DNA of 58,860 nt from an uncultured Micavibrio sp. (GCA_964647515.1 CAZYHI010000001.1:1-58860); one strand, 5' to 3'; counted from the stretch's first letter, positions 2,023 to 50,087 are shown. Made by a program: numbers and translations. The notes: generated from the letters alone by a model not told the origin.

Positions 2023-4686
2023 TTAAGCAGCCAAGTCGCGCAGAACATAATGTAAAATACCGCCGTGGCGGTAATAATCCACCTCGTCCAATGTATCAAT
2101 ACGAGACATCAGTGCGACTTCTTCGCTTGAACCATCGGCACGTGTGATTGTCATACTGACATCTTGTTGTGGCTTCATATCACCAGCGATGCCAGAGATA
2201 TCAAAAGTTTCAGAGCCATCAAGGTTTAAACTCTCACGGGTTACGCCATCTTTAAAGACGAGCGGTAGAACGCCCATCCCCACTAAATTTGATCTATGAA
2301 TACGCTCAAAACTTTCAGCAACCACAGCTTTCACACCCAACAACCTTGTTCCCTTCGCCGCCCAATCACGCGAAGAGCCCGTACCATATTCTTTACCCGC
2401 AATCACAACCAACGGCGTGCCAGCCTCTTGATATTTCATTGACGCATCATAGATACTCATCTGCTCATCATCAGGAATATATTTTGTGTACCCCCCTTCA
2501 ACATTATCGAGCATAAGATTTTTAATACGGATATTACCGAATGTTCCGCGCATCATCACTTCATGATTTCCACGACGAGAACCGAATGAGTTAAAATCTT
2601 TCGGACCAATTTGATGAGAACTTAAATATTCCCCCGCAGGACCAGCCTTCTTAATCGCGCCAGCTGGTGAAATATGATCTGTCGTCACACTATGCCCTAA
2701 CAAAGCCAGCGCACGTGCGCCTTTAATGTCCGCGGTGTCATCGGTTGTTTTTTCCATCCCATCAAAAAATGGCGGATTTTTCACGTAAGTTGAACCAGGC
2801 GCCCAATCATAAGTTTGCCCTGCATCATCCGCGCCAATGGCTTGCCATTCTTTCGTGCCCTTGAACACATCACCATAACGTTCGGTAAACATGGCAGGTG
2901 TCAAACATTCTTCAACAGTTTTGCGAATTTCCTCATTGCTCGGCCAGATATCTTTCATGTAAACATCATTGCCTTCCGTATCCTGACCAATTGGGTCTTT
3001 ATAGAGATCAATGTTTAGCGACCCTGCTAGCGCATACGCCACAACCAATGGCGGTGATGCCAAATAGTTCGCCGTGACATGTGGGCTGATACGCCCTTCA
3101 AAATTTCTGTTTCCTGACAACACACCACAAACCGTTAAGTCATTATCCTCAATTGCTTTGGTAATCTCAGGTGATAGTGGGCCAGAATTTCCGATACAGG
3201 TCGTACAACCATAACCGACCAGATTAAAACCCAGCGCATCCAAATCATCTTGCAAGTTTGCGCGTTCAAGATACTCCGTCACCACTTGTGACCCAGGGGC
3301 GAGCGATGTTTTCACCCACGGCTTCACGCTTAAACCTTTGGCAAGCGCATTACGCGCCACCAGTCCAGCCGCCACCATCACATCGGGGTTTGATGTATTT
3401 GTACAAGAAGTAATCGCCGCAATCGCCACATTACCATCGACCATATCAAATTCTTGCCCCATGACCGCGCTCGATTTTTGGTTCGGCACATGTTTTTTGA
3501 ACGCAGGCGCAGCATCACTCAACGCAATTCTATCTTGCGGACGTTTCGGCCCCGCGATGGATGGCACAACATCCTGCAAATTCAATGACAAAGTTTTGGT
3601 GAATTCAGGCTCATGCCCCTCTTCTCTCCACATGCCTTGCTCTTTGGCGTAGGCTTCAACCAGCGCAACGCGGTCTTTATCACGTCCTGTAAATTCGAGG
3701 TATCTTATCGTCTCCGCATCAATCGGGAAGAAGCCACAAGTCGCGCCATATTCAGGTGCCATGTTGGCAATCGTCGCACGATCTGCCAGTGACAAGTTCT
3801 GCAAACCATCACCGTAAAATTCGACAAACTTACCCACCACGCCCAGCTCGCGCAGCATTTCAACAACAACCAGAACCAAGTCCGTCGCTGTTGCGCCTTC
3901 TTTTAATTGACCTTCAAGTTTAAAGCCCACCACTTCGGGAATTAACATGGAGACAGGCTGACCCAGCATCGCTGCTTCGGCTTCAATACCACCAACGCCC
4001 CAACCCAAAATACCAAGACCGTTAATCATTGTCGTGTGTGAGTCCGTCCCCACTAAAGTATCAGGATACGCAACATCACTGCCGTTTTGGTCTTTTTCCA
4101 TCCAAACAGTTTGGCCCAGATATTCTAGATTCACTTGGTGACAAATCCCCGTTCCCGGTGGCACAACGCGAAAATTATCAAACGCATCTTGTCCCCATTT
4201 TAAAAACTCATAACGTTCGCCATTACGTTCAAATTCACGTTCAACATTGGCACTAAAGGCACGCTCGGTTCCAAACTCATCGACCATCACAGAATGGTCA
4301 ATGACTAGATCTACCGCGCTTAACGGGTTAATTTTTTGCACATCACCGCCAAGGTTTTTAATCGCCTCACGCATCGCCGCCAAATCAACCACGGCAGGCA
4401 CACCTGTAAAATCTTGCAACAGAACACGCGCAGGACGATAGGCTATTTCCTTGGTTGAGCTTTTTGTATCCAGCCAATCTGCCACCGCTTGGACATCATC
4501 AGTTGTGACAGAACGTCCATCTTCATAACGCAATAAGTTTTCTAACAAGACTTTAAGGCTAAACGGCAGTTTAGAAATATCACCGATTTTCTCCGCCGCC
4601 GCTTTCAGGGAAAAATAATCATATGATTTTCCATTCACTTCCAGTGTTTTACGTGTGCCTAAAGTGTCTTGTCCTGTTTGTGTCAT
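2023..4686 (-). CDS. acnA: aconitate hydratase A
   Basis: 887 aa with the Fe-S cluster ligand motifs [18 protein letters not shown] and [10 protein letters not shown]. Length and N-terminus ([22 protein letters not shown]) are typical of AcnA/IRP-type aconitases. Confidence 0.97.
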
Positions 4687-37722: not shown

Positions 37723-38115
37723 TTAAAAATGCCCATCCAAAGCAATAAAGATAAAGCAAATATAGGCTAAATGGGTTAGATTATGTAACTCTTGATCGAC
37801 ACCAAACCACCACCAAAAAGATGTATCTTTTGGCGTTAAATTTTTTACCAATGTAATGTGCCCTTTAACGCGGTCAATAAAGGCATGAACAACAAAATCC
37901 ACGACAGCCAACCACCACAAATGCGGCGCAAAAACCAACATCACCAAAAGCGTTCCAGTCGCATGGATAACCGTATGCACAAAAAGAGCTCTATAGCCTT
38001 CTTTTCCTGCTTTTCCCTTTGTTAAAGCCATCCAATCTGTTTGTAATAAAAAATCACAAGCAAAATGTTTTGCGCGAAAGGATAAATATAACAATAAAAG
38101 AAGGGTCGGAGACAT
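37723..38115 (-). CDS. DUF3307 family membrane protein
   Basis: The C-terminal 130 aa of the 282-aa track ORF (start ATG 38115) carry KHFACDFLLQTDWMA, then a His-rich TM region (VHTVIHATG, VVHAFIDRVKGH) typical of DUF3307. The upstream 150 codons look non-coding. Confidence 0.6.
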   Translation of the reverse strand: MSPTLLLLLYLSFRAKHFACDFLLQTDWMALTKGKAGKEGYRALFVHTVIHATGTLLVMLVFAPHLWWLAVVDFVVHAFIDRVKGHITLVKNLTPKDTSFWWWFGVDQELHNLTHLAYICFIFIALDGHF

Positions 38116-38266
38116 TAAATAGGTTTCTTTATAGAGAAGTTGTAAAGATAAGTATGACACATGCGGTATATATTCCAAGTAAAATTCAATACAAAAACGC
38201 CAAATTAGCAAATCTTTGCCCTGTACTCGTATAATAATACAAGGCATTATGTTTGTAGGGGAAAAA

Positions 38267-39478
38267 ATGAATACAATAACACAAGAAATAAACAAAAAAG
38301 AAATCAAAGCGGGTGACACCATCCTCAAGCAAGGAGATGAGGGTAGCAACGCTTTTATTATTGAATCTGGTTCAGTTGAAATCTTAATTGAAAAAGAAAA
38401 TAATCTTGTCCAAAGCATCGGTACCAGAGGGCCTGGTACAATTATTGGTGAGATGGCTCTCGTTGACAACAACCCGCGAACCGCGACGATTAAAGCAACA
38501 CAAGACAGTGTTTTACTTGAAATCACAAAAGATGATTTTGAGCGCCGCTTAGGAAATTCTGATCCTGTCATTCAGATGGTGACACAAGTTATCCTCGCGC
38601 GCTATCGCGATATCATCACCCGTGCACAAATTTTGGGCACCCAGAACACCACATCAACACCAGAAGAATTAGAAAAAGGCTTGGTTGAAAAAACGAATGC
38701 CGTTGCAAATATTAAACTCTCTAACGAATTAAAAAATGCATTAGACAACGATGAACTTGAACTTCATTACCAACCCATCATTGATTTAAAAACAAAGAAA
38801 ATAAATGGGTTTGAAGCTCTTATTCGTTGGAAACACCATGAAAAAGGTTATATTTCTCCTGAAATTTTTATTCCTTTAGCCGAAGATAATGGGCAGATAT
38901 TAGATATTAGCCGCTGGGTTGTATCACAAGCCTGTAAAACATTAAGTAAGATCAAAGATACGTTTAATGACAACGACTTTTTCATGAGCGTCAATTTTTC
39001 TGCCAGCGATTTTGCCAACGCGGATTTTAAATCATACGTCAATTACGCGCTCAATGAATCAAATATAAAACCGCATGAAATTCATCTTGAAATTACTGAA
39101 CGCTTACTAATGGGAAATCCAAGTAGTGCCCGCGACACAATAGAAGCCTGTCGCAAAGATGGTATGCTCATATCCATTGATGACTTTGGTACAGGTTACA
39201 GTTCTTTAAGTTACCTCCACCACTTTCCCATCGATATCTTAAAAATTGACCAAAGCTTCATTAACAATATGATTGATGATCAAAGTGCTTTAGAACTCGT
39301 AAAATCTATCATCGCATTAAGTCATAACATGGGCATGAAAATTATCGCCGAAGGGATAGAGACAGAAGAACAATCTCAAATATTGGAAAATCTGAATTGT
39401 GACCAAGCCCAAGGTTATCTTTATGCACGCCCCATGACAGAAGATAACTTAACCATGTTCATTCAACAACAAAACTAA
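38267..39478 (+). CDS. cyclic-nucleotide-binding domain / EAL domain phosphodiesterase
   Basis: The ATG at 38267 has an RBS AGGGGA. The cNMP-binding motifs are FIIESGSVEI and GEMALVDNNPRTATIKA. The EAL motifs are QPIIDL, EALIRW, DDFGTGYSSLSYL and AEGIETEEQ. Confidence 0.88.
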   Translation: MNTITQEINKKEIKAGDTILKQGDEGSNAFIIESGSVEILIEKENNLVQSIGTRGPGTIIGEMALVDNNPRTATIKATQDSVLLEITKDDFERRLGNSDPVIQMVTQVILARYRDIITRAQILGTQNTTSTPEELEKGLVEKTNAVANIKLSNELKNALDNDELELHYQPIIDLKTKKINGFEALIRWKHHEKGYISPEIFIPLAEDNGQILDISRWVVSQACKTLSKIKDTFNDNDFFMSVNFSASDFANADFKSYVNYALNESNIKPHEIHLEITERLLMGNPSSARDTIEACRKDGMLISIDDFGTGYSSLSYLHHFPIDILKIDQSFINNMIDDQSALELVKSIIALSHNMGMKIIAEGIETEEQSQILENLNCDQAQGYLYARPMTEDNLTMFIQQQN

Positions 39479-39584: not shown

Positions 39585-42500
39585 ATGGCTTACAATTCAG
39601 ACACGGGTTCTGCAACGCAGGATAACGGTACAACCAATATAAATTTAACACAAAATAAAGATGGTAACTTTGAGTTACCTTCTGGTTATGTCGTTAGCAA
39701 TGCTGAATTTTACCGTGATGGTCAGGATTTGACGTTAAAGTTCACTGATCAAAATGATATTTCTATCGAAAATTACTTCACAAACCAAGATGACCCTTTA
39801 ATCCAAGATGATGCTGGAAATAGCGCAAATAACGGTCTGATCAATTCATTCCTTCAATCTTCTCCTGAATATGCACAAACCTCTTCACTCACGGATGAAA
39901 GCCCTATTGGTGCCGTCGAAGAAATAAAAGGTGAAGCCACACTAATTCGTGCCGATGGTAACGTTGAAGACGTAACCTTAGGAACGCCTGTTTATCAAGG
40001 CGATGTTATTCAAACGTCTGGTGATGGTGCCTTAAATATTACCTTTATCGATGAAACAAGTTTAGCCATTAGTGAGAATGCTAAAGTGGCTCTCGATAAT
40101 TATAAATTTGATGCTAAAACAGAAAGTGGTGAGACAGATATTTCTGTTTTACGTGGTGTTTTTGTTTATACCAGCGGTCTTATTGGGCGCGATGATCCCG
40201 ACGACGTTAAAATTGATACACCTGTTGGCTCCATCGGTATTCGCGGAACAATCATTGCGGGTAACATCAACCCTAATGGTCAGAGTGAAATATCAGTTCT
40301 TGAAGGGGCTATTGTTATTACCAATGGCGTTAGCGAGAGAACATTATCTCAACAATTCGAAACCATTCAATTAACTGGGTTTAACAATGCTATTGAATAT
40401 AAAGGTGTTGAAGCCGCAGATAACATTAGTAAAACATACGGATCAGTTAATGATGTTTTACCAAAATTATTCAGCTCTATTAATGACGCAACCAAAGAAG
40501 AGGTCATTGAAGAAGAAGTCGAGGCTTCTGAAGAAAACAATGACATCGAAAGTAACGAACAAGAAACCTTAGAACTTGATTCAACATTAGACACGCAAGA
40601 TATTATAGAACTTGAAATCGGTGAAACAGGCGAGGCAACCGCTATAGAAACATCGACAGATAGTAATGTTACAACAGAACAAACATCGTTAAATTCAGGT
40701 CTTCAGGAGAGTGATTTAAATCGTACCACGATAGACGATCCTGCCTTTCAAGAATTCTTAGACCGTCCAGTTGAAACTAGGACTGAAACTGAAACGACGA
40801 CACCTCCGCCACCGCCACCAGCTGTACCAAGCGCAACGATTGATATATTTGACAGTAGTGGAAATTTACTTTTTGAAGGGAATAAATTTGATGTTAAAGT
40901 TGGTAAAATTGTTCTCTCAAATGTTCCTACCGCTGATTTAGGATCGGTAATGATCTCTGATAATAATAATATTTTTAGCTATAATCAAGACATGGCAAAC
41001 CAAAATGAATTTACTATAACTGTTGATGACGAAGCCGCAGCGCGCGTACCTTCAAATAATATAATTACTATTACAATTGGTGGTGCTAGTGCGGAAACAA
41101 TTAACCTGCCTCTTGATATATTAGATGCCGCAGTGCATTTGAATACACCAGGAGGGTTTGATTATGATGTGAGTTCTGCAACAGCTTTACAAGAACACCT
41201 GCTTAATGCACAAGATTTTGATGGCGATGGTGACAGAGATTATCTTACCATTACAAGCACAATCAATCCAAATACAAATCAAGAGGTAAATGTTTTTGAT
41301 CAAAGTAATTTAACAGGCCTCATACAAGAAACAAACCCAGGTGGTAGAAAATGGAATGATGCTGAATTCTTCGGAGATATCAATAATGATGGTTTTGCCG
41401 ATATTGTTGGTATAACAGATGACCTAGCATCAGATTATAGTATCATCATGGGGAATAACACCCCTCAAAATCCTATTCATTTAGATTTTTTAACCCCACT
41501 CACAATAGGACCAACATCTGTTGCCTCTGCTGGCGACTTTAATGCAGGTGGTAAATCTGATTTTGTTTTAGGCGCAGCGAGTGAAAATAGTGGACAAGGA
41601 CGTGTAATCATCCAATATGGCCCAAGTAATGCAGGTTTTATTGTCAATGGAACAGCTTCAGACACAGCCTTTGGTAGCCAAGTCTTTAACCTTGGTGATG
41701 TCAATGGTGATGGCGTCACAGATGTACTGGCTACAGGACAAGATGAAGCTTATGTGATTTTTGGTCGAGAAAATAATTCTGGAATCTACGAAACATTGGA
41801 TACAACTGATTTACAAAATTCGATTCAAGGGCTTGAGATTGGGGAAGGAGTCCCCCATAATTTTGTAACTGCAGGGAGCACAGGAGACATTAACGGTGAT
41901 GGCTTTGATGACTTTGCTGTTTCTTTTGATGATGGTACAGATATAAATACTTATGTTGTTTACGGAGAAAATGGTATAGAATTTCCTTCTGATTTAGATT
42001 TAAATTACTTAGAAAATCCTGATAACGCACTAAAAATCAATCACGATGGGGCAACAGGTCAAAACTATCAAATTACTGCACTGGGTGATGTTGATGGCGA
42101 CGGATTTGATGATATCCAACTTGGCATTGAAGGCGGTAAACAGTATACCGTTCATGGTGCTCCTGGCGGTAGTGCTCATGTGATTGTTACTGATCAATCC
42201 GACAATGATGATAATATGAATGCAGGTATTATAAGCGCATCGGGTGACCTCCAATCTCTCGTTGGCAATGTTAACTTTGACGACTCAGATAAAACAGGCA
42301 TTCGTATAAGTGGCGGTGATGGAGATAACATCATCAATATAAGCAACGATGATTTCGCAAAAATAGATGGCGGTGATGGATTTGATAGAATAAATATTGT
42401 AACACAAAATGGAAATCTCGATTTCACAAACTTACAGTATGAACAGGTTGAAAATATAGAACAAATCAACTTTGGTAATACTGGCCAAACAGTAACATTA

Positions 42501-42773
42501 GACGCAATTAGTATTTTCAATTTATTAAAACAAAGTGACAATAATGACTTAAGAATCTCTGGTGATTTAGGAGACACCTTAAACATTACAGATGCTAGTG
42601 GCGGCACTACAGGGGACCTAAAGGATAGAATTGTGGATATTCTAAATAGTGAGGGAGAAGGCGCTACTCACGAAACAAACACAACATTAGATGGAAATGA
42701 GTACAACCACTTCAAAATTGGGGGATATGACCTTTACATCGATACAGATATTACAACAGCAGTCGTCGTCTAG
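39585..42773 (+). CDS. large FecR-domain / FG-GAP repeat protein with RTX-like C-terminus (putative type I secretion substrate)
   Basis: 1062 aa with no signal peptide. The FecR-like segment is GEATLIRADGNVEDVTLGTPVYQGDVIQTSGDGALNITFIDETSLAI. An acidic low-complexity and PPPPPP linker follows. There are six DxDxDG-type FG-GAP calcium motifs (e.g. DFDGDGDRDY, DINGDGFDDF). GGDGDNII and GGDGFDRI are RTX-like nonapeptides, and the C-terminus is hydrophobic (..DTDITTAVVV). Confidence 0.85.
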   Translation: MAYNSDTGSATQDNGTTNINLTQNKDGNFELPSGYVVSNAEFYRDGQDLTLKFTDQNDISIENYFTNQDDPLIQDDAGNSANNGLINSFLQSSPEYAQTSSLTDESPIGAVEEIKGEATLIRADGNVEDVTLGTPVYQGDVIQTSGDGALNITFIDETSLAISENAKVALDNYKFDAKTESGETDISVLRGVFVYTSGLIGRDDPDDVKIDTPVGSIGIRGTIIAGNINPNGQSEISVLEGAIVITNGVSERTLSQQFETIQLTGFNNAIEYKGVEAADNISKTYGSVNDVLPKLFSSINDATKEEVIEEEVEASEENNDIESNEQETLELDSTLDTQDIIELEIGETGEATAIETSTDSNVTTEQTSLNSGLQESDLNRTTIDDPAFQEFLDRPVETRTETETTTPPPPPPAVPSATIDIFDSSGNLLFEGNKFDVKVGKIVLSNVPTADLGSVMISDNNNIFSYNQDMANQNEFTITVDDEAAARVPSNNIITITIGGASAETINLPLDILDAAVHLNTPGGFDYDVSSATALQEHLLNAQDFDGDGDRDYLTITSTINPNTNQEVNVFDQSNLTGLIQETNPGGRKWNDAEFFGDINNDGFADIVGITDDLASDYSIIMGNNTPQNPIHLDFLTPLTIGPTSVASAGDFNAGGKSDFVLGAASENSGQGRVIIQYGPSNAGFIVNGTASDTAFGSQVFNLGDVNGDGVTDVLATGQDEAYVIFGRENNSGIYETLDTTDLQNSIQGLEIGEGVPHNFVTAGSTGDINGDGFDDFAVSFDDGTDINTYVVYGENGIEFPSDLDLNYLENPDNALKINHDGATGQNYQITALGDVDGDGFDDIQLGIEGGKQYTVHGAPGGSAHVIVTDQSDNDDNMNAGIISASGDLQSLVGNVNFDDSDKTGIRISGGDGDNIINISNDDFAKIDGGDGFDRINIVTQNGNLDFTNLQYEQVENIEQINFGNTGQTVTLDAISIFNLLKQSDNNDLRISGDLGDTLNITDASGGTTGDLKDRIVDILNSEGEGATHETNTTLDGNEYNHFKIGGYDLYIDTDITTAVVV

Positions 42774-42777
42774 TTGA

Positions 42778-45018
42778 CTACTTGCTCTTGGCAACGAAAA
42801 CCCCGTCCCAATTTTCTGGTGGCGGGTTTTTTGTAAGTTCAATAATACGTTCACTATAAATTTTATAATATTTTTTCATGGAATCTAAGGCCAAATCCGA
42901 TGCCTCTTTACAATCTTGTGCCGCACAGGACAAATCCGCAATACGGTATGCGGCCAACATTCCGTTATGTGCCGCTTGCCATTTTTTAAATGCATCACTA
43001 CACGCATAATCAGCATCACCTACCAACGTATAAACACGCACCGCTTCATCGCGCCCAATAACCTTAATTAAATCAAGTTCCAACATCGCCAAATCATCAA
43101 CTTGTTTTTTGGTATCTTCACCAATCAAAATATCAACACCATAAGATTTTGTCTGCCCTTCTAAACGTGATGCCAAATTCACAGCATCACCCAAGGCAGA
43201 ATAAGCGAAACGTTGTTTTGATCCCATATTACCAACAGAACAAGGCCCTGTATTAACCCCTATTCCCGCTTGAAGATTAAGAGAACTCTTGTCTTTTTCT
43301 TTCATCTTATCATTCACGTTAACAAGGGCTTCATTCATCTTTAACGCCGCCAAACACGCTTGGCGCGCATGATCCGGATCATCAAGAGGCGCATTCCAAA
43401 ATGCCATCATCGCATCGCCCATATATTTATCAATCGTACCACGTGAATTCATCACAATGTCTGACATTGGTGTTAAAAAATCATTCATCAACTGAATCAA
43501 TTCTTCGGGTGATAAATTTTCTGATATCTTTGTAAAGCTTCTAATATCACTAAACATAACGGTGAGATCACGCACCTCCCCACCTAGCTTCAACTTATCA
43601 GGACTATTCGTCAGTTCTTCCATAAATTCTGGCGAGATATAATGACCGAAGGCTGTTTTGACTTGCCGTCTATCCGCTTCTGACCGTAAATAACTGAGCA
43701 AAGATGACACAACAAATAAAAAGAAAATCACAACACTTGGATATGTTGGATCAAATAATAACCCTTTTTCCACATAAGCAAAAAAGGCCGAATAATAGAG
43801 TCCACCAATGCTCATCACACTAAATATGCTTAACCAAATCACATTAATAAAAGGTGCCAATAATATAATAATCAAACCACTAACAAGGATAATTAATGCC
43901 TCTACCCCATTGGTAAAAGAAGGGCGTGTTAAAAATTTATTTTGCAAAATTTGTTCGACGACATTCACATGTACTTCAACACCAGGTTCAAAAATACTTA
44001 ATGGCGTTGAACGAATATCTCGAAGCCCGACGGCGCTTGTTCCAACAAAAACTATTTTATCTTTGATTTTATTTTCAATATTTGTGTTTTTTAAAACATC
44101 AACAGCCTTAATATATTCATCGTTTTTGATATCACGGTAATGAACCCAAAACTTCAAATCAGCATTGACAGGGATTTCTGTTTTTCCCAACTTGGTATAA
44201 TAATCAGTATCAAATAATCCCTTATTCTTATCTTTGCGTTCTTTAATACTATACCGCGCATTGGGGGACAGAGACACCCGCCATGCCTCTAACCCCAACA
44301 TCGGGTAAAGCTTGGTTTGATCAGGTGCTTCAGTGTAACGAGGGTACGCATTAAATAGTGAGACCTCACGAATAATACCATCGACATGCGGCGTCGCAAT
44401 GAAGCTTCCATTTCCTGCCGCGCTTGATGATAATATTTCTAAATTGGTGGCTAACCCAGCCGGTGAATATGGCGCGCGCAATAAGGGTTTTTTATTTTTA
44501 AAAAATAAAGTTGGTGCATTTTTTCGATAAGGTAAACGTCTCGTTTCTTCTGGGCGTGCCGCTGCAAAACCCGTCACTACATTTCCTGCTGCTTTAATAG
44601 AGTTCGCAAAAATCTTATCATTATCGGGCAAGCTTAGGATATTTTCCTTTGCTTGGGTAAATACATCATCTTCAGGCAGATATTCAACAATTTGTTGTGG
44701 GCTTGTTCTGTCTTCTTCGGCAAAAACCATATCGAAAGCAATCGCTTTGGCACCCATTTCATTTAATCTCTCCACAATTTCCGCCATCACCGTACGCGAC
44801 CATGGCCATTGTCCAATTTCTTTTAAGGATATTTCATCAACATCGATAATGGCAATGTCATCTGTCGCAGGACGTTCATGAAAACGGTTAAACACATCAA
44901 ATGTCAAATATTGTATCCGTTTTCGAAATTCATGATTTGAATCACTAAACCATACGGCAAAACCCAATATAAAAAGCAGAAAAATAATATGAAATTTTTT
45001 GTTCGTTAAAAAGCGCAT
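42778..45018 (-). CDS. CHASE2 sensor domain-containing class III adenylate/guanylate cyclase
   Basis: 746 aa. It has an N-terminal TM segment, a large periplasmic CHASE2-like region (IDVDEISLKEIGQWPWSR) and three TM segments. The cyclase domain motifs are VMFSDIRSFT, GDAMMAFW and GDAVNLASRLE. Confidence 0.9.
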   Translation of the reverse strand: MRFLTNKKFHIIFLLFILGFAVWFSDSNHEFRKRIQYLTFDVFNRFHERPATDDIAIIDVDEISLKEIGQWPWSRTVMAEIVERLNEMGAKAIAFDMVFAEEDRTSPQQIVEYLPEDDVFTQAKENILSLPDNDKIFANSIKAAGNVVTGFAAARPEETRRLPYRKNAPTLFFKNKKPLLRAPYSPAGLATNLEILSSSAAGNGSFIATPHVDGIIREVSLFNAYPRYTEAPDQTKLYPMLGLEAWRVSLSPNARYSIKERKDKNKGLFDTDYYTKLGKTEIPVNADLKFWVHYRDIKNDEYIKAVDVLKNTNIENKIKDKIVFVGTSAVGLRDIRSTPLSIFEPGVEVHVNVVEQILQNKFLTRPSFTNGVEALIILVSGLIIILLAPFINVIWLSIFSVMSIGGLYYSAFFAYVEKGLLFDPTYPSVVIFFLFVVSSLLSYLRSEADRRQVKTAFGHYISPEFMEELTNSPDKLKLGGEVRDLTVMFSDIRSFTKISENLSPEELIQLMNDFLTPMSDIVMNSRGTIDKYMGDAMMAFWNAPLDDPDHARQACLAALKMNEALVNVNDKMKEKDKSSLNLQAGIGVNTGPCSVGNMGSKQRFAYSALGDAVNLASRLEGQTKSYGVDILIGEDTKKQVDDLAMLELDLIKVIGRDEAVRVYTLVGDADYACSDAFKKWQAAHNGMLAAYRIADLSCAAQDCKEASDLALDSMKKYYKIYSERIIELTKNPPPENWDGVFVAKSK

Positions 45019-45026
45019 AACGGCAT

Positions 45027-46334
45027 TTATCTTTCTGTTAACGCCTTGTCCTTGGCGCGTAAGACAGGTTTTGCTAAATAACTTAAAATGGTTCTATCCC
45101 CTGTAATAATTTCAACTTCGGCAACCATACCGGGTGTAATCGGTAATGGATTTTCTTTTGTTCCTAAATAATTTTGATCCGCGCGAAGTTCAATTTCAAA
45201 AAATATATTGCCATCATTATCATTCACGCTATTGGCACCAATACGCACCAATGCTCCTTTTAACGATCCATAACGCTGTGAGTCATAAGCCGATATTTTA
45301 ATATTAGCCTCTTGATCGGGGCGTAAAAAGGCAATCTCTTGTGGCGTCACGCGGGCAATTATTTTTAAATCGTCATCCAAAGGAACAACCTCAACTAATT
45401 TCATGGCCGGTTCAATCACACCGCCAATCGTTTTAATCGCAATTTTATTCACCACACCATCCACAGGTGATTTTATTTCGGCGCGGTCAACCCGTTCCCC
45501 AATAGCCGTTAAGTTCTCACTTAATTGCGATATCTGACTTTCAATATCATTAAGCTCCCCTAAAACCTGACTTTTAAACTTATCTTCACGGTCGGCGCGT
45601 TCACGCTGCGCCCCTCTTAAATCAGCTTCAAGGCCGCTCTTTTTTTGCCCTGCTTCACGAATTTGTCCTGCAATATTTGAAATCTCGCGATTAAGGCGAA
45701 TTTCTTCAATTTGCGGCACAGCCTTTTGCGCCACCATTCTTTTTGTAATCGTCAGTTCTTGATTAAGTGATTTACGACTATCAGCAAATCTATTGATTTT
45801 GGCTTGCGCCTCTCTTATACCGGCACGTGCGCTTGAAATTTTATTATCTAAAATAGACTTCGCATTGCTTAACTCTTGCTGACGCGATTGATACAACGCT
45901 TGCTCATTACGGGCAATATCAGGGAACTTATCCGCCACCTCTTTAGGAACGGTAAATGTTTTACCCGCGGCCTCGGCGTCCAATCTTGCCTTCTTGGCTT
46001 TCAATGCCAATGTTCGTGCCTCAGTTCCGCGCTCTTCGGACGCAAAAGCAACATCATTGACCTTTAATAATATCTGTCCTTTTTTAACCTGCTGACCTTC
46101 ACGAACCAAAAGCTCGGTTAAAATACCGCCTTCTAAGCTTTGCACCACTTGAATTTCTTGCGTTGGGACAACCTGCCCACTGCCATGGGTAATCTCTTCT
46201 ATTTCCGATGTTCCTGCCCAAATAAAAAAGGCAAGAACCAGCGAGACAATCGTCAACAACATAAAATGCGAAGCCGTTGACGGCTTCATCCGTGTCGCGG
46301 CTTCCAATTCATTCATAAATTCTTTATCAGGCAT
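45027..46334 (-). CDS. HlyD family type I secretion periplasmic adaptor
   Basis: 435 aa with an N-terminal TM segment, a long coiled coil, and a C-terminal beta-barrel ending in ITGDRTILSYLAKPV, typical of HlyD/LssD adaptors. Confidence 0.9.
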   Translation of the reverse strand: MPDKEFMNELEAATRMKPSTASHFMLLTIVSLVLAFFIWAGTSEIEEITHGSGQVVPTQEIQVVQSLEGGILTELLVREGQQVKKGQILLKVNDVAFASEERGTEARTLALKAKKARLDAEAAGKTFTVPKEVADKFPDIARNEQALYQSRQQELSNAKSILDNKISSARAGIREAQAKINRFADSRKSLNQELTITKRMVAQKAVPQIEEIRLNREISNIAGQIREAGQKKSGLEADLRGAQRERADREDKFKSQVLGELNDIESQISQLSENLTAIGERVDRAEIKSPVDGVVNKIAIKTIGGVIEPAMKLVEVVPLDDDLKIIARVTPQEIAFLRPDQEANIKISAYDSQRYGSLKGALVRIGANSVNDNDGNIFFEIELRADQNYLGTKENPLPITPGMVAEVEIITGDRTILSYLAKPVLRAKDKALTER

Positions 46335-46340
46335 GTCTTA

Positions 46341-48506
46341 TCAATCTTTCGGAACTTGTATCTTACCTTGATTAATTTTTTCAATCACCATATCACGTTC
46401 ACCATCCATGATGATGCGCCCTTGATCCATTAAAATCAAACGATCCACCATAGTTAACAGATGATGACGATGTGTAATCAAAATAAGCGTCTTCTCTTTT
46501 GTTTGTTGTTGAATGTGATGCACAAAGGAATTTTCAGCCTGCGTATCCATCGCATTTGTCGGTTCATCACAAATATATAAGTTAGGTTTCAACAACATCG
46601 CACGCGCCAAAGCCACACATTGTCTTTGACCACCGCTTAAGCCTTCACCTCTCTCACCGACGGGCGCATCATATCCCATGGGGTGTTGTGCAATGAAATC
46701 ATGCACACCTGCAGCCGTTGAAGCTTCCAAAATATCTTCCTCGCTCGCATGGGGGACACTGACAATAATATTATCACGCACCGTACCATTAAACAGCACG
46801 ACATCTTGCGCGATATAGGCCATGTTACGACGTAAATCCGCTGGATCAATCTGACGGTAATCCGTTTTATCTAACAAAATCGTTCCGTCCGTTGGTGCAT
46901 AAAGCCCCATCGCTAAGCGCGACAATGTACTTTTACCAGAACCTATACGTCCGATAATACCAACCTTCTCCCCTGCTTCAATAGAAAAGCTAACATCTTC
47001 TAAAACCTTACGGTCTGTCTTAGGGTAAACGAAAGACGCCTTTCTAAAGGTTAAATTTCCTTTTAAATCGGGGCGATGTAAAAATTGTTTTTCGGCAGGT
47101 CGTTCAATTGGTTTAGACATTATATTGTTCAATGTTTTTAACGCCGTGCGCGCACTGTGATAACGACTCATTAAATTCGCCATTTGGCCTATCGGTGCAA
47201 TAGCGCGTCCACTCAAAAGGACACAAGCAATGAGCGCGCCAACGCTCATCGTTGAATCTTTAACCAAATACATTCCAATAAGAACGACAAAAATAGTGGC
47301 GCTTTGTTGAACCCAGCTTGATATATTCACACCTAAACCAGACACAAATCTTGATTTTTGTGAGTATTTCGAATTTTCAGCGATGTAACGACCATATCGT
47401 TCACGCATACGACCATCGGCACCCACAGCCTTAATCGTTTCTAAACCATGGATCGTTTCAATCAAAAGACCATGTTTGGCTTCCGATGATTTTGTTGATT
47501 TTTTCACCAAGGATTTCAAAGGAAATTGTAACAACACACCGGCAATAAAAACCAAGATAATAAGCCCCGCCAACACAAAGGCAATCGGCCCACCCAACAT
47601 CCAAATCACAAATAAAAATAAGAATGTAAATGGTAAATCAATAATTGTCGTCAATGTCGCCGATGTAATAAAATCACGCACAGAATCAAAATCACGCAGC
47701 ATACTCGCAAATGATCCACTGGAATTTGGCCGTTCTTCCAACTTCATATTCAATAGCTGATCATAAATGCGTCGCCCTGCAATAACATCAACGCGCCGTC
47801 CTGCAAGGTCAATAAAATACCCCCGTAAGTTTTTTAAAATAAAATCAAAAACAAAAACCGTTAAGGCTCCAAGACCTAAAACCCATCCCGTTTCAATGGC
47901 GTTATTCGGAATAACACGGTTATATATGTTCATAATAAATATAGGGCTGGTAAGGGCAAAAATATTAATAAAAATAGCTGCCACAGCCACGCGTAAATAA
48001 ATAGATTTACAATCCAGCATCGGCCCCCAAAACCAATGATCTTTGTAATCATCATTTTTGGACAATGTTTTTTCTTCAAATTCAGGTTTAGGATGAATAT
48101 AAATGGCATAACCGCTATAGGAAGATTTTAAATCTTTAAATGATACAGAACGCTCACTCTCCGTTTCTGGTGACCAAATAATCGCGCTTTGTTCGTTTTT
48201 GTTTATTTTTAGCAACACACAAGCTTGCTCATTATCCAGCACTAAAACAACAGGTAAAACAGCCGAAGGGATTTTGTTAATATTGGCACGTTTTATAATT
48301 TTTGTTTTTAAATTAATACGCTCCGCCGCCTCACAAAACAAAGAAGGTTTCATATGATCTTGCGCATAGGCCAGACCAGAAACAAGGGCTTGAGATGATT
48401 TAGCACGTCCATAATGCGTCGTTAAAAAAACAAGGCATTCTAATAAAGGATCAATCTTTGATTTTGTCTTTAATTCTAGCTTGGTTTCTAATTCAGGCAA
48501 ATTCAA
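46341..48506 (-). CDS. type I secretion system permease/ATPase with N-terminal C39-like domain (LssB-like)
   Basis: 721 aa. The N-terminal DPLLECLVFLTTHYG is a C39-like domain. Six TM segments follow. Walker A is GRIGSGKST, the signature is LSGGQRQ, and Walker B is LYICDEPT. Confidence 0.92.
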   Translation of the reverse strand: MNLPELETKLELKTKSKIDPLLECLVFLTTHYGRAKSSQALVSGLAYAQDHMKPSLFCEAAERINLKTKIIKRANINKIPSAVLPVVLVLDNEQACVLLKINKNEQSAIIWSPETESERSVSFKDLKSSYSGYAIYIHPKPEFEEKTLSKNDDYKDHWFWGPMLDCKSIYLRVAVAAIFINIFALTSPIFIMNIYNRVIPNNAIETGWVLGLGALTVFVFDFILKNLRGYFIDLAGRRVDVIAGRRIYDQLLNMKLEERPNSSGSFASMLRDFDSVRDFITSATLTTIIDLPFTFLFLFVIWMLGGPIAFVLAGLIILVFIAGVLLQFPLKSLVKKSTKSSEAKHGLLIETIHGLETIKAVGADGRMRERYGRYIAENSKYSQKSRFVSGLGVNISSWVQQSATIFVVLIGMYLVKDSTMSVGALIACVLLSGRAIAPIGQMANLMSRYHSARTALKTLNNIMSKPIERPAEKQFLHRPDLKGNLTFRKASFVYPKTDRKVLEDVSFSIEAGEKVGIIGRIGSGKSTLSRLAMGLYAPTDGTILLDKTDYRQIDPADLRRNMAYIAQDVVLFNGTVRDNIIVSVPHASEEDILEASTAAGVHDFIAQHPMGYDAPVGERGEGLSGGQRQCVALARAMLLKPNLYICDEPTNAMDTQAENSFVHHIQQQTKEKTLILITHRHHLLTMVDRLILMDQGRIIMDGERDMVIEKINQGKIQVPKD

Positions 48507-48518
48507 CCCCTTACGAGT

Positions 48519-50087
48519 TTATTGTGTTGTAATATAAACGCGCTCACTGGATGCCGATGAATGAAGCCTTGGCTTATATAACTGAGGTTCTACAACAGGT
48601 ATTGCTGGCTCGATAATCTTTTCTGGCACTCTTTCTTCAAAAGCAGGTTGAATAATCGGCACTCTTGGTTCAAACGATTTACGAACAGGGATAGGCGCAC
48701 TTAATTTAATTTTTTCAACAGGTTTTGTTCTTACAATAGGTTGAGGAACATCTGCAGCGGAGTGAACAGAAGAAGTATTTAATTGAACATCGCCAATCAC
48801 TCTATTTTGCAACTGCCCCATACTGGCTAAAATATTATATTTAGCAAATAAAGTGCGGTAATTTGCCCCAATAGATTCTAATTGCGCATTAAAGAGTTGA
48901 TTTTCCGCCTGCATTAATTGCAACAAACGAACACGCGCCCCTTCAAATTGAATTTTATACGCATCCGATAATTCACGCGTCACTGTTTCTCTCTTTTCAA
49001 CCAAGGCAACTTGCTTTTGCGCCGTTTCCAGCTCGCTATACGCCCGCTGAATGTCACCTTCAATAGTACGCAACTGTTCTTTATTCTGCGCCGCTATTTC
49101 AGCATACTGCGCTTTAGATCTATTCACGCGTGCCTTAGAAGCACCACCAGTTTCAAAATCCCAATTCATCCTTACAAGCGCACGCGCATCTTCTAATTTG
49201 CCACCAATAACCTCTCGTTGTTCGCGTTTAATACCCGATAATTCGGCATCAACACTTGGTAAAATATCCGCTTTTTCAACTTTTACATCATAGGCAATCG
49301 CTTCCATCTCTTTTGCATTAGACTTTAGAAGCGGGTGATTTTCTCTTGCATAAGAAAATGCAGCAGACGGTGTTCCAACAAGATTAGACACATCACGCGG
49401 TTCAACAAGAGCCGTTCTTGGGCGATGACCTATAATTTCTTTATAATTGGCGCGTGCGGTTTCCAACTGCCCTTCATAATCAACTAAAGAACTTTGAAGC
49501 ATTAAACCAATATTGCGCGCCTGCGCCGCTTCTGATTCATCTGCGGCTCCTTCATTCACCATAAGCTCAATACGTTGCAAATAATTTTCAATAGAGGCCA
49601 AATAAGACTTTGTTTTATTTAATGTTGCTTGCGCCTGTAAAACCCCAATATGTGCTTGCGTTGCCCGCAAAGCCAAATTCTCACGCACATCTAAAACATT
49701 GTAATCCGCAGACTCTATACGTGCATGAGCCGCTCCAACTCTATTTTTGATCTGCCCACCACCATAAAGAGGTTGCGTTAAGCTCGCACTGACTTCAAAC
49801 AAGCCTGAAGAAGCTGAATCCCTTGTGACGGACAAGCCACGGCTAACACTATTATTTGCAAAAAGACCACCAACTGACGTTTCCGCCGATAATGTTGGAA
49901 ATAAATCAGATTTTGCTTCTCGGCGTGTGGCACTGGCCGCATCACGCCCTCTTAGTGCCGCCTCAACACTAGGGTGCGTTTCCAACGCCTTAAGCACGGA
50001 TTCCTTCAATGTCTCTGATGAAGCGCTTTGACACACGCCAAAAGACAATATTGTCGTACAACTATAGAGAAGGATTTTTTTATACAT
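48519..50087 (-). CDS. TolC family outer membrane channel with Pro-rich C-terminal extension
   Basis: 522 aa with a signal peptide and two TolC-type repeat halves (LKESVLKALETHPSVEAA, typical of T1SS TolC). There is a ~90-aa extra C-terminal tail rich in Pro/Val/Glu. Confidence 0.88.
   Translation of the reverse strand: MYKKILLYSCTTILSFGVCQSASSETLKESVLKALETHPSVEAALRGRDAASATRREAKSDLFPTLSAETSVGGLFANNSVSRGLSVTRDSASSGLFEVSASLTQPLYGGGQIKNRVGAAHARIESADYNVLDVRENLALRATQAHIGVLQAQATLNKTKSYLASIENYLQRIELMVNEGAADESEAAQARNIGLMLQSSLVDYEGQLETARANYKEIIGHRPRTALVEPRDVSNLVGTPSAAFSYARENHPLLKSNAKEMEAIAYDVKVEKADILPSVDAELSGIKREQREVIGGKLEDARALVRMNWDFETGGASKARVNRSKAQYAEIAAQNKEQLRTIEGDIQRAYSELETAQKQVALVEKRETVTRELSDAYKIQFEGARVRLLQLMQAENQLFNAQLESIGANYRTLFAKYNILASMGQLQNRVIGDVQLNTSSVHSAADVPQPIVRTKPVEKIKLSAPIPVRKSFEPRVPIIQPAFEERVPEKIIEPAIPVVEPQLYKPRLHSSASSERVYITTQ

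What the first reader, a model, noticed from the sequence alone, without database searches (positions are those of the whole stretch)
39585..42773. Giant FecR + FG-GAP propeller + RTX-like protein as the likely T1SS cargo and CHASE2 partner
Seen: the protein is 1062 aa with no N-terminal signal peptide. A FecR-like beta-sandwich segment spans ~aa 110-250. An acidic low-complexity region and a TETETTTPPPPPP linker follow. Six DxDxDG-type FG-GAP calcium motifs lie between nt ~41215 and ~42117. There are two GGxGxD-like nonapeptides (GGDGDNII, GGDGFDRI). The C-terminus is acidic then hydrophobic (DTDITTAVVV), like those of T1SS-secreted proteases and lipases. Established knowledge: T1SS substrates carry uncleaved C-terminal signals and RTX repeats. 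From my memory of comparative genomics, FecR-domain proteins are recurrent genomic neighbours of CHASE2 sensors. Inference: here the FecR partner has been fused to an integrin-like propeller and routed through a dedicated T1SS. That would make the CHASE2 ligand a self-secreted protein, giving an autocrine or contact-sensing loop.
Basis: partly seen in the sequence, partly recalled or inferred. Interest (0 to 1): 0.6.

Follow-up and report, generated by a model that had tools for sequence, protein, structure and literature searches.

The report
Plug-headed surface protein wired to cAMP
A Micavibrio-like predatory bacterium encodes a calcium-binding, integrin-like surface protein beside its own export pump, and the protein's folded head, related to the plug that keeps giant adhesins stuck in their export channel, is the best candidate partner for the cAMP-making membrane sensor encoded in the same gene cluster.

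Summary
ORF 39585-42773 encodes a 1062-aa, cysteine-free protein with no signal peptide or membrane segment. It has a FecR domain, an acidic linker ending in TETETTTPPPPPP, an integrin-alpha-like propeller (5 strict and 1 degenerate calcium loops), two GGxGxD turns and the C-terminus DTDITTAVVV.

- **Type I secretion (T1SS) cargo: well supported.** The exporter is of the LssB/LapB type. Head-bearing protein and exporter-cyclase operon occur together in 67 of 121 genomes of the order and are both missing in 45, even where they lie about 1 Mb apart.
- **The "FecR" segment is the head of a retention module.** It folds like FecR/PupR periplasmic domains, and its first half is homologous to the cell-surface anchoring domain of the MpIBP adhesin (5IX9). 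A surface-tethered protein with a periplasmic head is therefore more likely than a freely secreted autocrine ligand.
- **CHASE2 link: comparative evidence only.** Similar heads lie beside CHASE2 cyclases in 7 of 20 loci from other alphaproteobacterial families, in several gene orders.
- **Downstream wiring.** The cyclase looks adenylate-specific and is the only class III cyclase found in this genome. The upstream gene is a full-length homologue of the cAMP-activated EAL enzyme Bd1971.

No binding or secretion has been shown. I found no published description. This scan has noted the same system before on other genomes.

The parts
38267..39478 (+). cNMP-binding + EAL phosphodiesterase, a full-length homologue of the cAMP-activated c-di-GMP phosphodiesterase Bd1971
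   Evidence: Pfam cNMP_binding plus EAL. PDB 6HQ5/6HQ4 'EAL Enzyme Bd1971', E 1.3e-76 over aa 32-408. The likely start is ATG 38267, preceded by GGGGAAAAA. It is one of only two cNMP-binding proteins found in the genome.
39585..42773 (+). The finding: a 1062-aa T1SS-type surface protein (P0001)
   Evidence: AlphaFold model with mean pLDDT 81.
39639..39854 (+). Small N-terminal beta domain (aa 19-90), BapA-prefix-like
   Evidence: Weak matches to Pfam BapA_N (E 0.0099) and NCBIfam biofilm_BapA_N (E 0.0057). pLDDT 82-92. Conserved in 39 homologues.
39897..40454 (+). FecR-fold head (aa 105-290), the most conserved part of the protein; its first ~70 residues are homologous to the MpIBP/LapA retention (anchoring) domain
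   Evidence: Pfam FecR, E 3e-11. NF033682 retention_LapA, 33-38 bits, below its cut-off of 50. Profile match to PDB 5IX9, E 3.8e-7. Foldseek: 4M0H/4M0N and 6OVK_R at E 3e-5 to 7e-5 over 147 columns, and 5IX9 with rmsd 0.9 over 65 columns. A run of invariant residues spans aa 187-244.
40461..40829 (+). Helix followed by a disordered acidic Thr/Pro-rich linker (aa 293-415) that ends in TETETTTPPPPPP; proposed to thread the outer-membrane channel
   Evidence: pLDDT below 50 for aa 317-413. Composition: 28% Asp+Glu. The threading role is an inference.
40830..41144 (+). Ig-like beta domain (aa 416-520)
   Evidence: All-beta segment in the AlphaFold model with pLDDT about 70-85. No family match.
41172..42164 (+). 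Integrin-alpha-like FG-GAP beta-propeller (aa 530-860) with 5 strict and 1 degenerate calcium loops
   Evidence: Pfam FG-GAP and FG-GAP_3. The top 50 Foldseek matches are all integrin alpha propellers, best E 2.9e-10. Loop positions.
42222..42770 (+). C-terminal beta-roll with two GGxGxD turns plus an alpha/beta domain, ending in IGGYDLYIDTDITTAVVV; the presumed T1SS targeting region
   Evidence: pLDDT 87-98. The motif IGGYxLY[IV]D followed by a short hydrophobic end is conserved in 60 homologues. No match to PF00353 or to any NCBIfam T1SS-target model.
42778..45018 (-). CHASE2 + class III nucleotide cyclase (probably adenylate cyclase), last gene of the T1SS operon
   Evidence: Pfam CHASE2, E 3.5e-53, and Guanylate_cyc, E 3e-23. 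Membrane segments at aa 9-27 and 376-437 bracket CHASE2, so it is periplasmic. Lys sits at the purine-specifying position. It is the only class III cyclase found in the genome.
45027..46334 (-). HlyD-family T1SS periplasmic adaptor
   Evidence: TIGR01843, 372 bits against a cut-off of 209.
46341..48506 (-). T1SS ABC permease/ATPase of the LssB (LapB-type) family, with an N-terminal C39-like domain
   Evidence: TIGR03375, 900 bits against a cut-off of 693. Pfam Peptidase_C39, E 1.6e-7.
48519..50087 (-). Dedicated TolC-like outer-membrane channel with a ~90-aa Pro/Val/Glu-rich C-terminal tail
   Evidence: Pfam OEP, E 1.8e-47. TIGR01844, 196 bits, below its cut-off of 225. Tail sequence seen.

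Best explanation
P0001 is a small member of the LapA/MpIBP kind of 'two-step' type I secretion (T1SS) surface proteins.

**Proposed route and topology (inferred)**
- It is made without a signal peptide and leaves C-terminus first through the adjacent exporter: an LssB/LapB-type ABC transporter, a HlyD adaptor and a dedicated TolC-like channel.
- Its calcium-dependent parts (C-terminal beta-roll, integrin-like propeller, Ig-like domain) fold outside the cell.
- The roughly 290-residue N-terminal head (a prefix-like domain plus a FecR-fold sandwich) is too bulky to follow and stays in the periplasm.
- The roughly 100-residue acidic linker threads the channel.

**Proposed signalling (inferred)**
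- The periplasmic head is the likely partner of the periplasmic CHASE2 domain of the adenylate cyclase encoded as the fourth gene of the exporter operon.
- cAMP from that cyclase would switch on the Bd1971-like EAL enzyme encoded just upstream and so lower c-di-GMP.
- In a Micavibrio-like predator this would tie the state of a surface (prey-contact) protein to the motile-versus-attached decision.

**Shown here:** the domain anatomy, the homologies, the gene linkage and the co-occurrence.

**Not shown:** export by this pump, retention of the head, head-CHASE2 contact, and the direction of signalling.
For: **Cargo features**
- No signal peptide or membrane segment, no cysteines, and a conserved C-terminal domain.

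**Exporter type**
- The ABC transporter matches TIGR03375 (LssB family) at 900 bits against a cut-off of 693.
- LssB is described as having a LapB-type C39-like domain and as serving substrates that carry an N-terminal retention module (PMC6959600).

**Head homology**
- The only PDB sequence match of the head profile is 5IX9, the MpIBP anchoring domain (E 3.8e-7).
- Foldseek gives rmsd 0.9 Å over 65 columns to 5IX9, and 147 columns to FecR-type domains 4M0H and 6OVK.
- NF033682 retention_LapA scores 33-38 bits.

**Linkage inside the order**
- The six-gene block is kept in every sufficiently long locus of the type that has the cargo gene next to the cyclase ('class A'), at 31-64% cargo identity.
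- In 121 genomes of the order, the head protein and the CHASE2 cyclase are both present in 67, the head alone in 1, the cyclase alone in 8, and neither in 45.
- In family f1 the two sets of genomes are identical (29 present, 11 absent). This includes co-loss inside genera g169 and g173, where the two loci are about 1 Mb apart or on different contigs.

**Linkage outside the order**
- Of 20 head-bearing loci from other alphaproteobacterial families, 7 have a CHASE2 cyclase within the fetched stretch (at most 20 kb), in at least four gene orders. T1SS ABC or HlyD genes are present in 9.

**Downstream wiring**
- It is the only class III cyclase in the genome, and only two cNMP-binding proteins were found, one of them the neighbouring EAL enzyme.
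- The EAL protein is a full-length Bd1971 homologue (E 1.3e-76).
- The cyclase has Lys at the purine-specifying position.

**Literature**
- FecR proteins lie beside CHASE2 sensors in Burkholderia (PMC5192318) and beside the CHASE2 cyclase CyaD1 in S. meliloti, where deleting CHASE2 makes the cyclase constitutive (PMC5498481).

**Expression**
- The syntenic M. aeruginosavorus ARL-13 gene GMV_1872 has a gene expression index of 66.1 in the attack phase and 19 in the attachment phase, among the higher attack-phase values in the part of the table I read (PMC3189940, supplement 4).
Against: - The retention model NF033682 scores below its curated cut-off, and it covers only the first half of the head.
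- There is no conserved di-alanine LapG site after the head.
- LapG-like proteases are present in 118 of 121 genomes of the order, whether or not the system is present. Release control of the Lap type is therefore not indicated.
- The RTX model PF00353 does not match. No T1SS-target model matches the C-terminus.
- In one nested clade ('class B') the head-bearing gene lies far from the exporter, and an unrelated 527-aa ORF occupies the cargo slot.
- 13 of the 20 head-bearing loci outside the order have no CHASE2 gene in the fetched stretch.
- LssB-family exporters of other Pseudomonadota were not seen next to CHASE2 genes, though those lists were truncated.
- CHASE2-linked heads are not a resolved clade.
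- No physical evidence for secretion, retention or binding exists.
Confidence: 0.55

Rival explanations
1. Freely secreted protein. The whole protein, head included, is released into the medium. There it acts as a soluble adhesin, lectin or prey-directed factor, or feeds back on the cell from outside.
For: - It is small for a retained adhesin at 1062 aa.
- There is no conserved di-alanine processing site.
- The retention_LapA model scores below its cut-off.
- The transcript is abundant in free-swimming attack-phase cells of M. aeruginosavorus.
Against: - A released head would be outside the outer membrane, whereas CHASE2 is periplasmic.
- The head is the most conserved part of the protein and is homologous to a domain whose solved structure is titled 'Cell surface anchoring domain'.
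- A folded beta-rich head of about 290 residues is unlikely to pass a TolC-like channel. This point rests on established knowledge of T1SS, not on a test made here.
Confidence: 0.2
2. Co-regulation without contact. The CHASE2 cyclase senses some other periplasmic or envelope cue. Through cAMP, the EAL enzyme and c-di-GMP it controls production, export or release of the surface protein. The head is only a plug and never touches CHASE2, so the cyclase acts upstream of the adhesin rather than downstream.
For: - This is the logic of the Lap system, where c-di-GMP controls the adhesin (PMC6959600).
- The cyclase-exporter operon stays intact where the cargo gene has moved away.
- Heads occur without CHASE2 in 13 of 20 outside loci.
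- A LapG-like protease is present in the genome.
Against: - FecR-domain proteins are recurrent neighbours of CHASE2 sensors in systems that have no T1SS at all (PMC5192318, PMC5498481). That points to a direct FecR-CHASE2 relation.
- The head protein and the cyclase are lost together even when they are unlinked. Co-regulation would also predict this, so it does not separate the two models.
Confidence: 0.2
3. FecR-type regulator or ordinary periplasmic or cytoplasmic protein. The protein is not a T1SS substrate and the neighbourhood is inherited synteny.
For: Flanking housekeeping genes (mreBCD, rpmJ, pntAB) are syntenic as well in many relatives.
Against: - It has no anti-sigma domain, membrane segment or signal peptide.
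- Calcium-loop propellers and a beta-roll need extracellular calcium.
- The cluster survives changes of flank: an alpha/beta-hydrolase and ligA here against pntAB in relatives.
- The same three components recur in other families in different gene orders.
Confidence: 0.03

Closest known systems
LapA / LapBCE / LapD-LapG of Pseudomonas fluorescens, and the MpIBP adhesin of Marinomonas primoryensis (two-step T1SS adhesins with an N-terminal retention module)
   Same: - No signal peptide.
- Exported by a LapB/LssB-type ABC transporter with a C39-like domain, a HlyD adaptor and a dedicated outer-membrane channel.
- The N-terminal folded domain is homologous to the MpIBP anchoring domain (5IX9).
- The order of parts is head, linker, variable calcium-binding passenger, then a C-terminal beta-roll.
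- The locus is tied to c-di-GMP metabolism.
   Different: - The head is a complete FecR-fold domain of about 185 residues, preceded by a prefix-like domain, not a plug of about 70-120 residues.
- There is no conserved di-alanine site.
- No LapD or LapG is linked or co-varies.
- Instead, a CHASE2 adenylate cyclase sits inside the exporter operon and a cAMP-type EAL enzyme sits next door.
- The passenger is a single propeller rather than tens of Ig-like repeats.
- Only two RTX-like turns are present.
FecR/PupR-type periplasmic domains of cell-surface signalling anti-sigma regulators (PDB 6OVK, 4M0H)
   Same: The fold of aa ~105-250 matches (Foldseek E 3e-5 to 7e-5, 147 columns). The Pfam FecR match is above its cut-off. 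The location would be periplasmic, and the role would be to relay information between an outer-membrane protein and an inner-membrane signalling protein.
   Different: It has no cytoplasmic anti-sigma domain and no membrane anchor. It is attached to a secreted passenger rather than to the inner membrane. The presumed partner is a CHASE2 cyclase, not a TonB-dependent transducer with a sigma factor.
CyaD1 (CHASE2 adenylate cyclase) with the neighbouring FecR-domain protein SMc02177 in Sinorhizobium meliloti; also the LysM-FecR plus CHASE2 histidine kinase operon of Burkholderia
   Same: A FecR-domain protein is encoded beside a CHASE2 sensor. In S. meliloti the output is cAMP, and deleting CHASE2 makes the cyclase constitutive (PMC5498481).
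   Different: Those FecR proteins are small Sec-type periplasmic proteins with no T1SS and no passenger. No FecR-CHASE2 contact has been shown there either.
Bd1971 of Bdellovibrio bacteriovorus (cAMP-activated EAL c-di-GMP phosphodiesterase, PDB 6HQ2-6HQ7)
   Same: The upstream gene aligns over its full length (E 1.3e-76), both the cNMP-binding domain and the EAL domain. Both organisms are bacterial predators.
   Different: This comparison concerns the neighbouring gene, not the finding itself. Activation by cAMP has not been tested for this protein.

Membership tests
Retention-module T1SS adhesins (LapA/MpIBP; NCBIfam NF033682) | N-terminal retention module that matches the family model | tested here: inconclusive
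   NF033682 scores 33.2-37.6 bits (E 5e-8 to 3e-9) over model positions 4-71 of 145, below the cut-off of 50. However, the head profile matches 5IX9 at E 3.8e-7, and Foldseek gives rmsd 0.9 Å, target TM-score 0.81 and 28% identity.
Retention-module T1SS adhesins (LapA/MpIBP; NCBIfam NF033682) | Di-alanine (TAAG-like) LapG cleavage site after the module | tested here: not met
   No conserved Ala-Ala in the alignment of 39 heads. Only one Ala (A278) is kept, and the residue before it varies.
Retention-module T1SS adhesins (LapA/MpIBP; NCBIfam NF033682) | LapB/LssB-type ABC transporter with a C39-like domain, plus a dedicated adaptor and outer-membrane channel | tested here: met
   TIGR03375 at 900 bits (cut-off 693), TIGR01843 at 372 bits (cut-off 209), and Pfam OEP and Peptidase_C39. 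The four genes are 6-12 nt apart. Whether the C39-like domain has lost its catalytic residues was not examined rigorously.
Retention-module T1SS adhesins (LapA/MpIBP; NCBIfam NF033682) | Linked or co-varying LapG protease and LapD receptor | tested here: not met
   Two LapG-like (BTLCP-family) protease genes lie on another contig (C105). This protease family is present in 118 of 121 genomes of the order, including the 45 that lack the system. LapD was not searched for.
Retention-module T1SS adhesins (LapA/MpIBP; NCBIfam NF033682) | Protein displayed on the cell surface with its N-terminus held in the periplasm | not testable with these tools
   Needs fractionation or surface labelling.
FecR-type anti-sigma regulators (cell-surface signalling) | FecR periplasmic domain (PF04773) | tested here: met
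   44.1 bits against a cut-off of 24. Foldseek matches 6OVK_R and 4M0H.
FecR-type anti-sigma regulators (cell-surface signalling) | Cytoplasmic anti-sigma domain and a single membrane anchor | tested here: not met
   No such Pfam domain and no hydrophobic segment anywhere in the protein.
RTX proteins (PF00353 HemolysinCabind) | Tandem GGxGxDxUx nonapeptides that match the model | tested here: not met
   PF00353 finds 56 stretches in the genome, none in this ORF. Only two isolated GGxGxD turns are present.
FG-GAP / integrin-alpha-type beta-propellers | FG-GAP repeats with calcium loops that form a propeller | tested here: met
   PF01839 at 58.4 bits (cut-off 22.1). The top 50 Foldseek matches are integrin alpha chains, E down to 2.9e-10. 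Five strict and one degenerate loops. The blade count (probably seven) was not measured.
Bd1971-type cAMP-activated EAL phosphodiesterases (neighbouring gene) | cNMP-binding domain fused to an EAL domain and alignable over the full length | tested here: met
   6HQ5, E 1.3e-76, query aa 32-408 against chain residues 8-388. Activation by cAMP is not testable here.

The most novel reading that the evidence does not exclude
The protein is a trans-envelope receptor, a bacterial counterpart of an integrin.
- Its propeller binds a ligand on prey or another surface.
- Occupancy or pulling force is passed along the linker threaded through the TolC-like channel to the periplasmic FecR-fold head.
- The head gates the CHASE2 adenylate cyclase.
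- The resulting cAMP activates the Bd1971-like EAL enzyme and lowers c-di-GMP, which switches the predator from search to attachment.

If so, the long-orphan CHASE2 domain would have a protein ligand: the head of a stalled T1SS substrate.
Probability: 0.3. Interest if true: 0.85.

Novelty: new variant of a known kind. Interest (0 to 1): 0.62.

Why it matters
- **CHASE2 has no known ligand.** It is a widespread sensor domain. A conserved periplasmic FecR-fold head delivered by a T1SS gives a concrete candidate that can be purified and tested.
- **A possible second way to wire adhesins to second messengers.** Here the chain would run from adhesin to cAMP to c-di-GMP, instead of from c-di-GMP through LapD and LapG to the adhesin. 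It would also link two families treated separately until now, FecR cell-surface-signalling domains and RTX-adhesin retention plugs.
- **Relevance to predation.** In Micavibrio-like predators the protein is highly expressed in the prey-seeking phase (RNA-seq of M. aeruginosavorus ARL-13), so it may bear on how an epibiotic predator recognises contact.

Tried and rejected
1. **Canonical RTX protein: rejected.** PF00353 does not match it, and no NCBIfam T1SS-target model matches the C-terminal 193 aa even at E 10.
2. **Lap-type release control: rejected.** There is no conserved di-alanine, and the LapG-like protease family is near-universal in the order and does not co-vary with the system.
3. 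**A general link between LssB-family exporters and CHASE2 in Pseudomonadota: not seen.** I compared the coordinates of 150 listed LssB matches with 150 listed CHASE2 matches in 301 genomes, and only the window's own genome showed adjacency. Both lists were truncated, so this is weak.
4. **CHASE2-linked heads as one subfamily: not resolved.** The tree is poorly resolved outside the order.
5. **The 527-aa ORF in the cargo slot of class B genomes as a cargo remnant: rejected.** It has no similarity to P0001 and no Pfam match.
6. **A c-di-GMP-binding MshEN-type domain at the N-terminus of the first LapG-like protease: not confirmed.** I suspected it by eye (RLGELLVLDGILSPTELKSALQ), but Pfam did not call it.
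7. **Literature.** Searches for CHASE2 with type I secretion, and for FecR with RTX adhesin and retention, returned nothing.


Full report
**1. The observation**

ORF 39585-42773 (+) is open and encodes 1062 aa. Pfam finds FecR (aa 140-243, E 3e-11), FG-GAP (E 6e-16) and FG-GAP_3, plus a weak BapA prefix-like match at aa 41-70.

- Five strict D-x-[DN]-x-[DN]-G calcium loops at aa 544, 598, 705, 768 and 835.
- A sixth, degenerate but conserved loop at aa 651.
- Two GGxGxD turns at aa 910 and 929.
- TETETTTPPPPPP at aa 400.
- The C-terminus DTDITTAVVV.

The protein has no cysteine and no hydrophobic segment, so it has neither a signal peptide nor a membrane anchor. Two words need softening. 'Giant' overstates 1062 aa. 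'RTX-like' means two turns only, because the RTX model PF00353 matches five other proteins of this genome but not this one.

**2. Anatomy from structure prediction**

An AlphaFold model built on 60 homologues has mean pLDDT 81. It shows, from N to C:
- a small beta domain (aa 19-90);
- a beta-sandwich head (aa 105-290);
- a helix (aa 293-318);
- a disordered acidic linker (aa 317-413, pLDDT below 50);
- an Ig-like domain (aa 416-520);
- a propeller (aa 530-860);
- a C-terminal beta-roll plus an alpha/beta domain (aa 880-1062, pLDDT about 95).

The 50 best Foldseek matches of the whole model are all integrin alpha propellers (best E 2.9e-10).

I modelled the first 320 residues separately on 39 homologues (pLDDT 85, pTM 0.82). 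The best PDB matches are periplasmic domains of FecR-type anti-sigma regulators: 4M0H/4M0N, and PupR in 6OVK_R, each over 147 columns at E 3e-5 to 7e-5. The next match is 5IX9, the 'cell surface anchoring domain' of the Marinomonas ice-binding adhesin MpIBP (65 columns, rmsd 0.9 Å, target TM-score 0.81, 28% identity).

By sequence, the head profile matches exactly one PDB entry, again 5IX9 (E 3.8e-7, profile positions 106-176). The NCBIfam model retention_LapA matches the same stretch at 33-38 bits, below its cut-off of 50.

So the 'FecR-like segment' does fold as FecR. Its first half is also the homologue of the plug that anchors RTX adhesins in their outer-membrane channel.

**3. Neighbours**

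Four genes lie on the minus strand, 6-12 nt apart:
- a TolC-like channel;
- an ABC exporter of the LssB family (TIGR03375, 900 bits against a cut-off of 693) with a C39-like N-terminal domain;
- a HlyD adaptor (TIGR01843, 372 bits);
- a CHASE2 plus class III cyclase.

The cyclase stop codon lies 4 nt from the stop codon of the convergent cargo gene. CHASE2 is bracketed by membrane segments at aa 9-27 and 376-437, so it is periplasmic.

The cyclase aligns best with cyanobacterial class III cyclases. It carries Lys where chain 6FHT_A ('Bacteriophytochrome,Adenylate cyclase') has Lys and 2W01 has Glu. From memory, 2W01 is the guanylate cyclase Cya2 and 6FHT is an engineered adenylate-specific form. 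On that basis the enzyme is probably an adenylate cyclase. It is the only class III cyclase found in this 89%-complete genome.

Upstream of the cargo gene lies a cNMP-binding EAL protein, with a likely start at ATG 38267. It aligns over its whole length with Bd1971, the cAMP-activated c-di-GMP phosphodiesterase of Bdellovibrio (6HQ5, E 1.3e-76). Only one other cNMP-binding protein was found in the genome.

**4. Conservation within the order**

The protein family has more than 570 members, nearly all unnamed, from Micavibrio-like Alphaproteobacteria. The window's genome belongs to the same family as M. aeruginosavorus.

Among 79 loci from different species I found two arrangements.

- **Class A.** The block is EAL, cargo, then convergent cyclase, HlyD, ABC and channel. 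It is intact wherever the contig is long enough, at 31-64% cargo identity.
- **Class B.** An 830-870-aa protein shares only the first 306 residues (49% identity) and a weakly similar C-terminal domain. It lies beside glpK and glpD with no exporter nearby.

Class B genomes still keep the channel-ABC-HlyD-cyclase operon and the EAL gene at the syntenic site. An unrelated 527-aa ORF occupies the cargo slot.

A tree of the heads makes the order one clade (SH-aLRT support 97). Class B is a single nested clade, so it reflects one relocation.

In a sample of 121 genomes of the order:

| Head protein | CHASE2 cyclase | Genomes |
|---|---|---|
| present | present | 67 |
| present | absent | 1 |
| absent | present | 8 |
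| absent | absent | 45 |

- In family f1 the genomes with the head and the genomes with the cyclase are the same 29, and the same 11 genomes lack both.
- This includes losses inside genera g169 and g173, where the two loci are about 1 Mb apart or on different contigs.
- Joint loss of unlinked genes is the strongest evidence here that the head-bearing protein and the exporter-cyclase operon work together.
- Passenger length varies from about 450 to about 3000 aa while the head is conserved. This is the pattern expected of an adhesin.

**5. Beyond the order**

The complete head (prefix-like domain plus FecR fold) occurs in 96 of 301 sampled alphaproteobacterial genomes, often at the start of ORFs of 1000-6900 aa.

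I fetched 20 such loci from other families. A CHASE2 cyclase lies within the fetched stretch in 7 of them, from 7 different families:
- divergent from the head gene (L110, L121);
- across the channel gene (L112, L120);
- as the last gene of a channel-cargo-ABC-HlyD-cyclase operon (L117, L118);
- in a different arrangement (L115).

T1SS ABC or HlyD genes are present in 9 of the 20. With one to a few CHASE2 genes per genome, my rough estimate is that a chance neighbour within 20 kb would occur in about 1-2% of loci. The association is therefore real, though it is not universal. It also does not define a resolved subfamily of heads.

Conversely, LssB-family exporters in other Pseudomonadota showed no CHASE2 neighbour in the (truncated) lists I could compare.

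**6. Literature**

- FecR-domain proteins beside CHASE2 sensors are documented for the LysM-FecR plus CHASE2 histidine kinase operon of Burkholderia (PMC5192318).
- They are also documented for SMc02177, the FecR-domain protein studied with the CHASE2 adenylate cyclase CyaD1 in S. meliloti. There a CyaD1 lacking CHASE2 makes cAMP constitutively (PMC5498481).
- LssB of Legionella is described as having a LapB-type C39-like domain and as serving a substrate with an N-terminal retention module (PMC6959600).
- The M. aeruginosavorus ARL-13 genome paper describes only the other T1SS. Its supplementary table nevertheless lists the syntenic locus, GMV_1870 to GMV_1877. The FG-GAP protein GMV_1872 has a gene expression index of 66.1 in the attack phase and 19 in the attachment phase, while most genes in the part of the table I read are near 0 in the attack phase.
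- Searches pairing CHASE2 with type I secretion, or FecR with RTX-adhesin retention, returned nothing.

**7. Mechanism**

The best-supported reading is a two-step T1SS surface protein.
- It is exported C-terminus first through the adjacent pump.
- Calcium-driven folding of the beta-roll, propeller and Ig-like domain takes place outside the cell.
- The acidic linker sits in the channel.
- The bulky head is retained in the periplasm.

There the head can meet the CHASE2 domain. cAMP from the cyclase would then activate the Bd1971-like EAL enzyme and lower c-di-GMP.

Shown here are the anatomy, the homologies, the linkage and the co-occurrence. Inferred are export by this pump, retention, head-CHASE2 contact and the direction of information flow.

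Three rivals remain:
This is less likely because the head would end up outside the outer membrane while CHASE2 is periplasmic.
- Co-regulation without contact, with the cyclase acting upstream of the adhesin.
- Mere synteny, which is disfavoured by the changes of flank and by the shuffled gene orders in other families.

Lap-type release control is not indicated. There is no conserved di-alanine, and LapG-like proteases are present in 118 of 121 genomes whether or not they carry the system.

**8. Novelty and earlier notes of this scan**

Against the literature I could search, this is a new variant of the retained-adhesin T1SS. It has a full FecR-fold head and a built-in CHASE2 adenylate cyclase in place of LapD and LapG.

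The scan has noted the same system before on other genomes, both Micavibrio-like and other Alphaproteobacteria. I reached the retention-head reading before opening those notes. I then took from them the lead to Bd1971 and the claim that the system extends beyond the order, and I tested both here.

Noticed in passing
Own genome, contig C105:2108-3061 and 3232-3906 (outside the window): Two tandem LapG-like (BTLCP, Peptidase_C93) protease genes. The first, 317 aa, has a cytoplasmic N-terminal stretch (RLGELLVLDGILSPTELKSALQ...QLGQYLVAQSVVSQTAIRRTLFEQ) followed by a membrane segment. By eye it resembles the c-di-GMP-binding MshEN motif, but Pfam did not call such a domain. A protease of about 320 aa from this family is present in 118 of 121 genomes of the order.
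   Followed up: partly
L059:10001-12502, L074:10001-12607 (class B loci); L099:11879-13462: In one nested clade of the order the head-bearing gene sits beside glpK and glpD, about 1 Mb from the exporter-cyclase operon. It carries a different, unannotated passenger. At the old cargo position lies an unrelated 527-aa ORF (P0121) with no Pfam match.
   Followed up: partly
window 48519-48794 (C-terminal ~90 aa of the TolC-like protein): The dedicated outer-membrane channel ends in a Pro/Val/Glu-rich tail of about 90 residues (…PQPIVRTKPVEKIKLSAPIPVRK…EPAIPVVEPQLYKPR…) that ordinary TolC proteins lack. It would lie in the periplasm, near the proposed head.
   Followed up: no
window 42773-42778: The stop codons of the convergent cargo and cyclase genes are only 4 nt apart. 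That leaves no room for separate terminators, so transcription from the two sides may interfere.
   Followed up: no
M. aeruginosavorus ARL-13, GMV_1873/GMV_1874 (PMC3189940, supplement 4): In the sequenced type strain the cyclase is annotated as two ORFs, one with the catalytic domain (1032 nt) and one with CHASE2 (1269 nt). This is either a frameshift or an annotation split. In the other loci examined it is a single gene.
   Followed up: no
Own genome contigs C7, C15, C55, C56, C91; second T1SS on C11:20853-26228: Five cysteine-free canonical RTX proteins carry a different C-terminal signature (GLDEVTLxTxGNIII-like). They are unlinked to any exporter in this assembly. A second LssB-family T1SS lies at a contig end, so the pairing of cargoes with the two pumps is open.
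   Followed up: partly
L109 (G629:C27), L102 (G658:C1), L115 (G433:C4): Other Alphaproteobacteria carry two or three head-bearing genes in tandem next to one T1SS (L109, L102). One small genome (L115) has two cyclase genes, one of them with CHASE2, and two HlyD genes around a single head-bearing gene.
   Followed up: no
window 37723-38571 (-) and 38216-38266: The 282-aa ORF listed for the DUF3307 gene is over-extended. Relatives have 131 aa, which places the start near 38118. The EAL gene most likely starts at ATG 38267, not TTG 38216, so the two genes do not overlap.
   Followed up: yes
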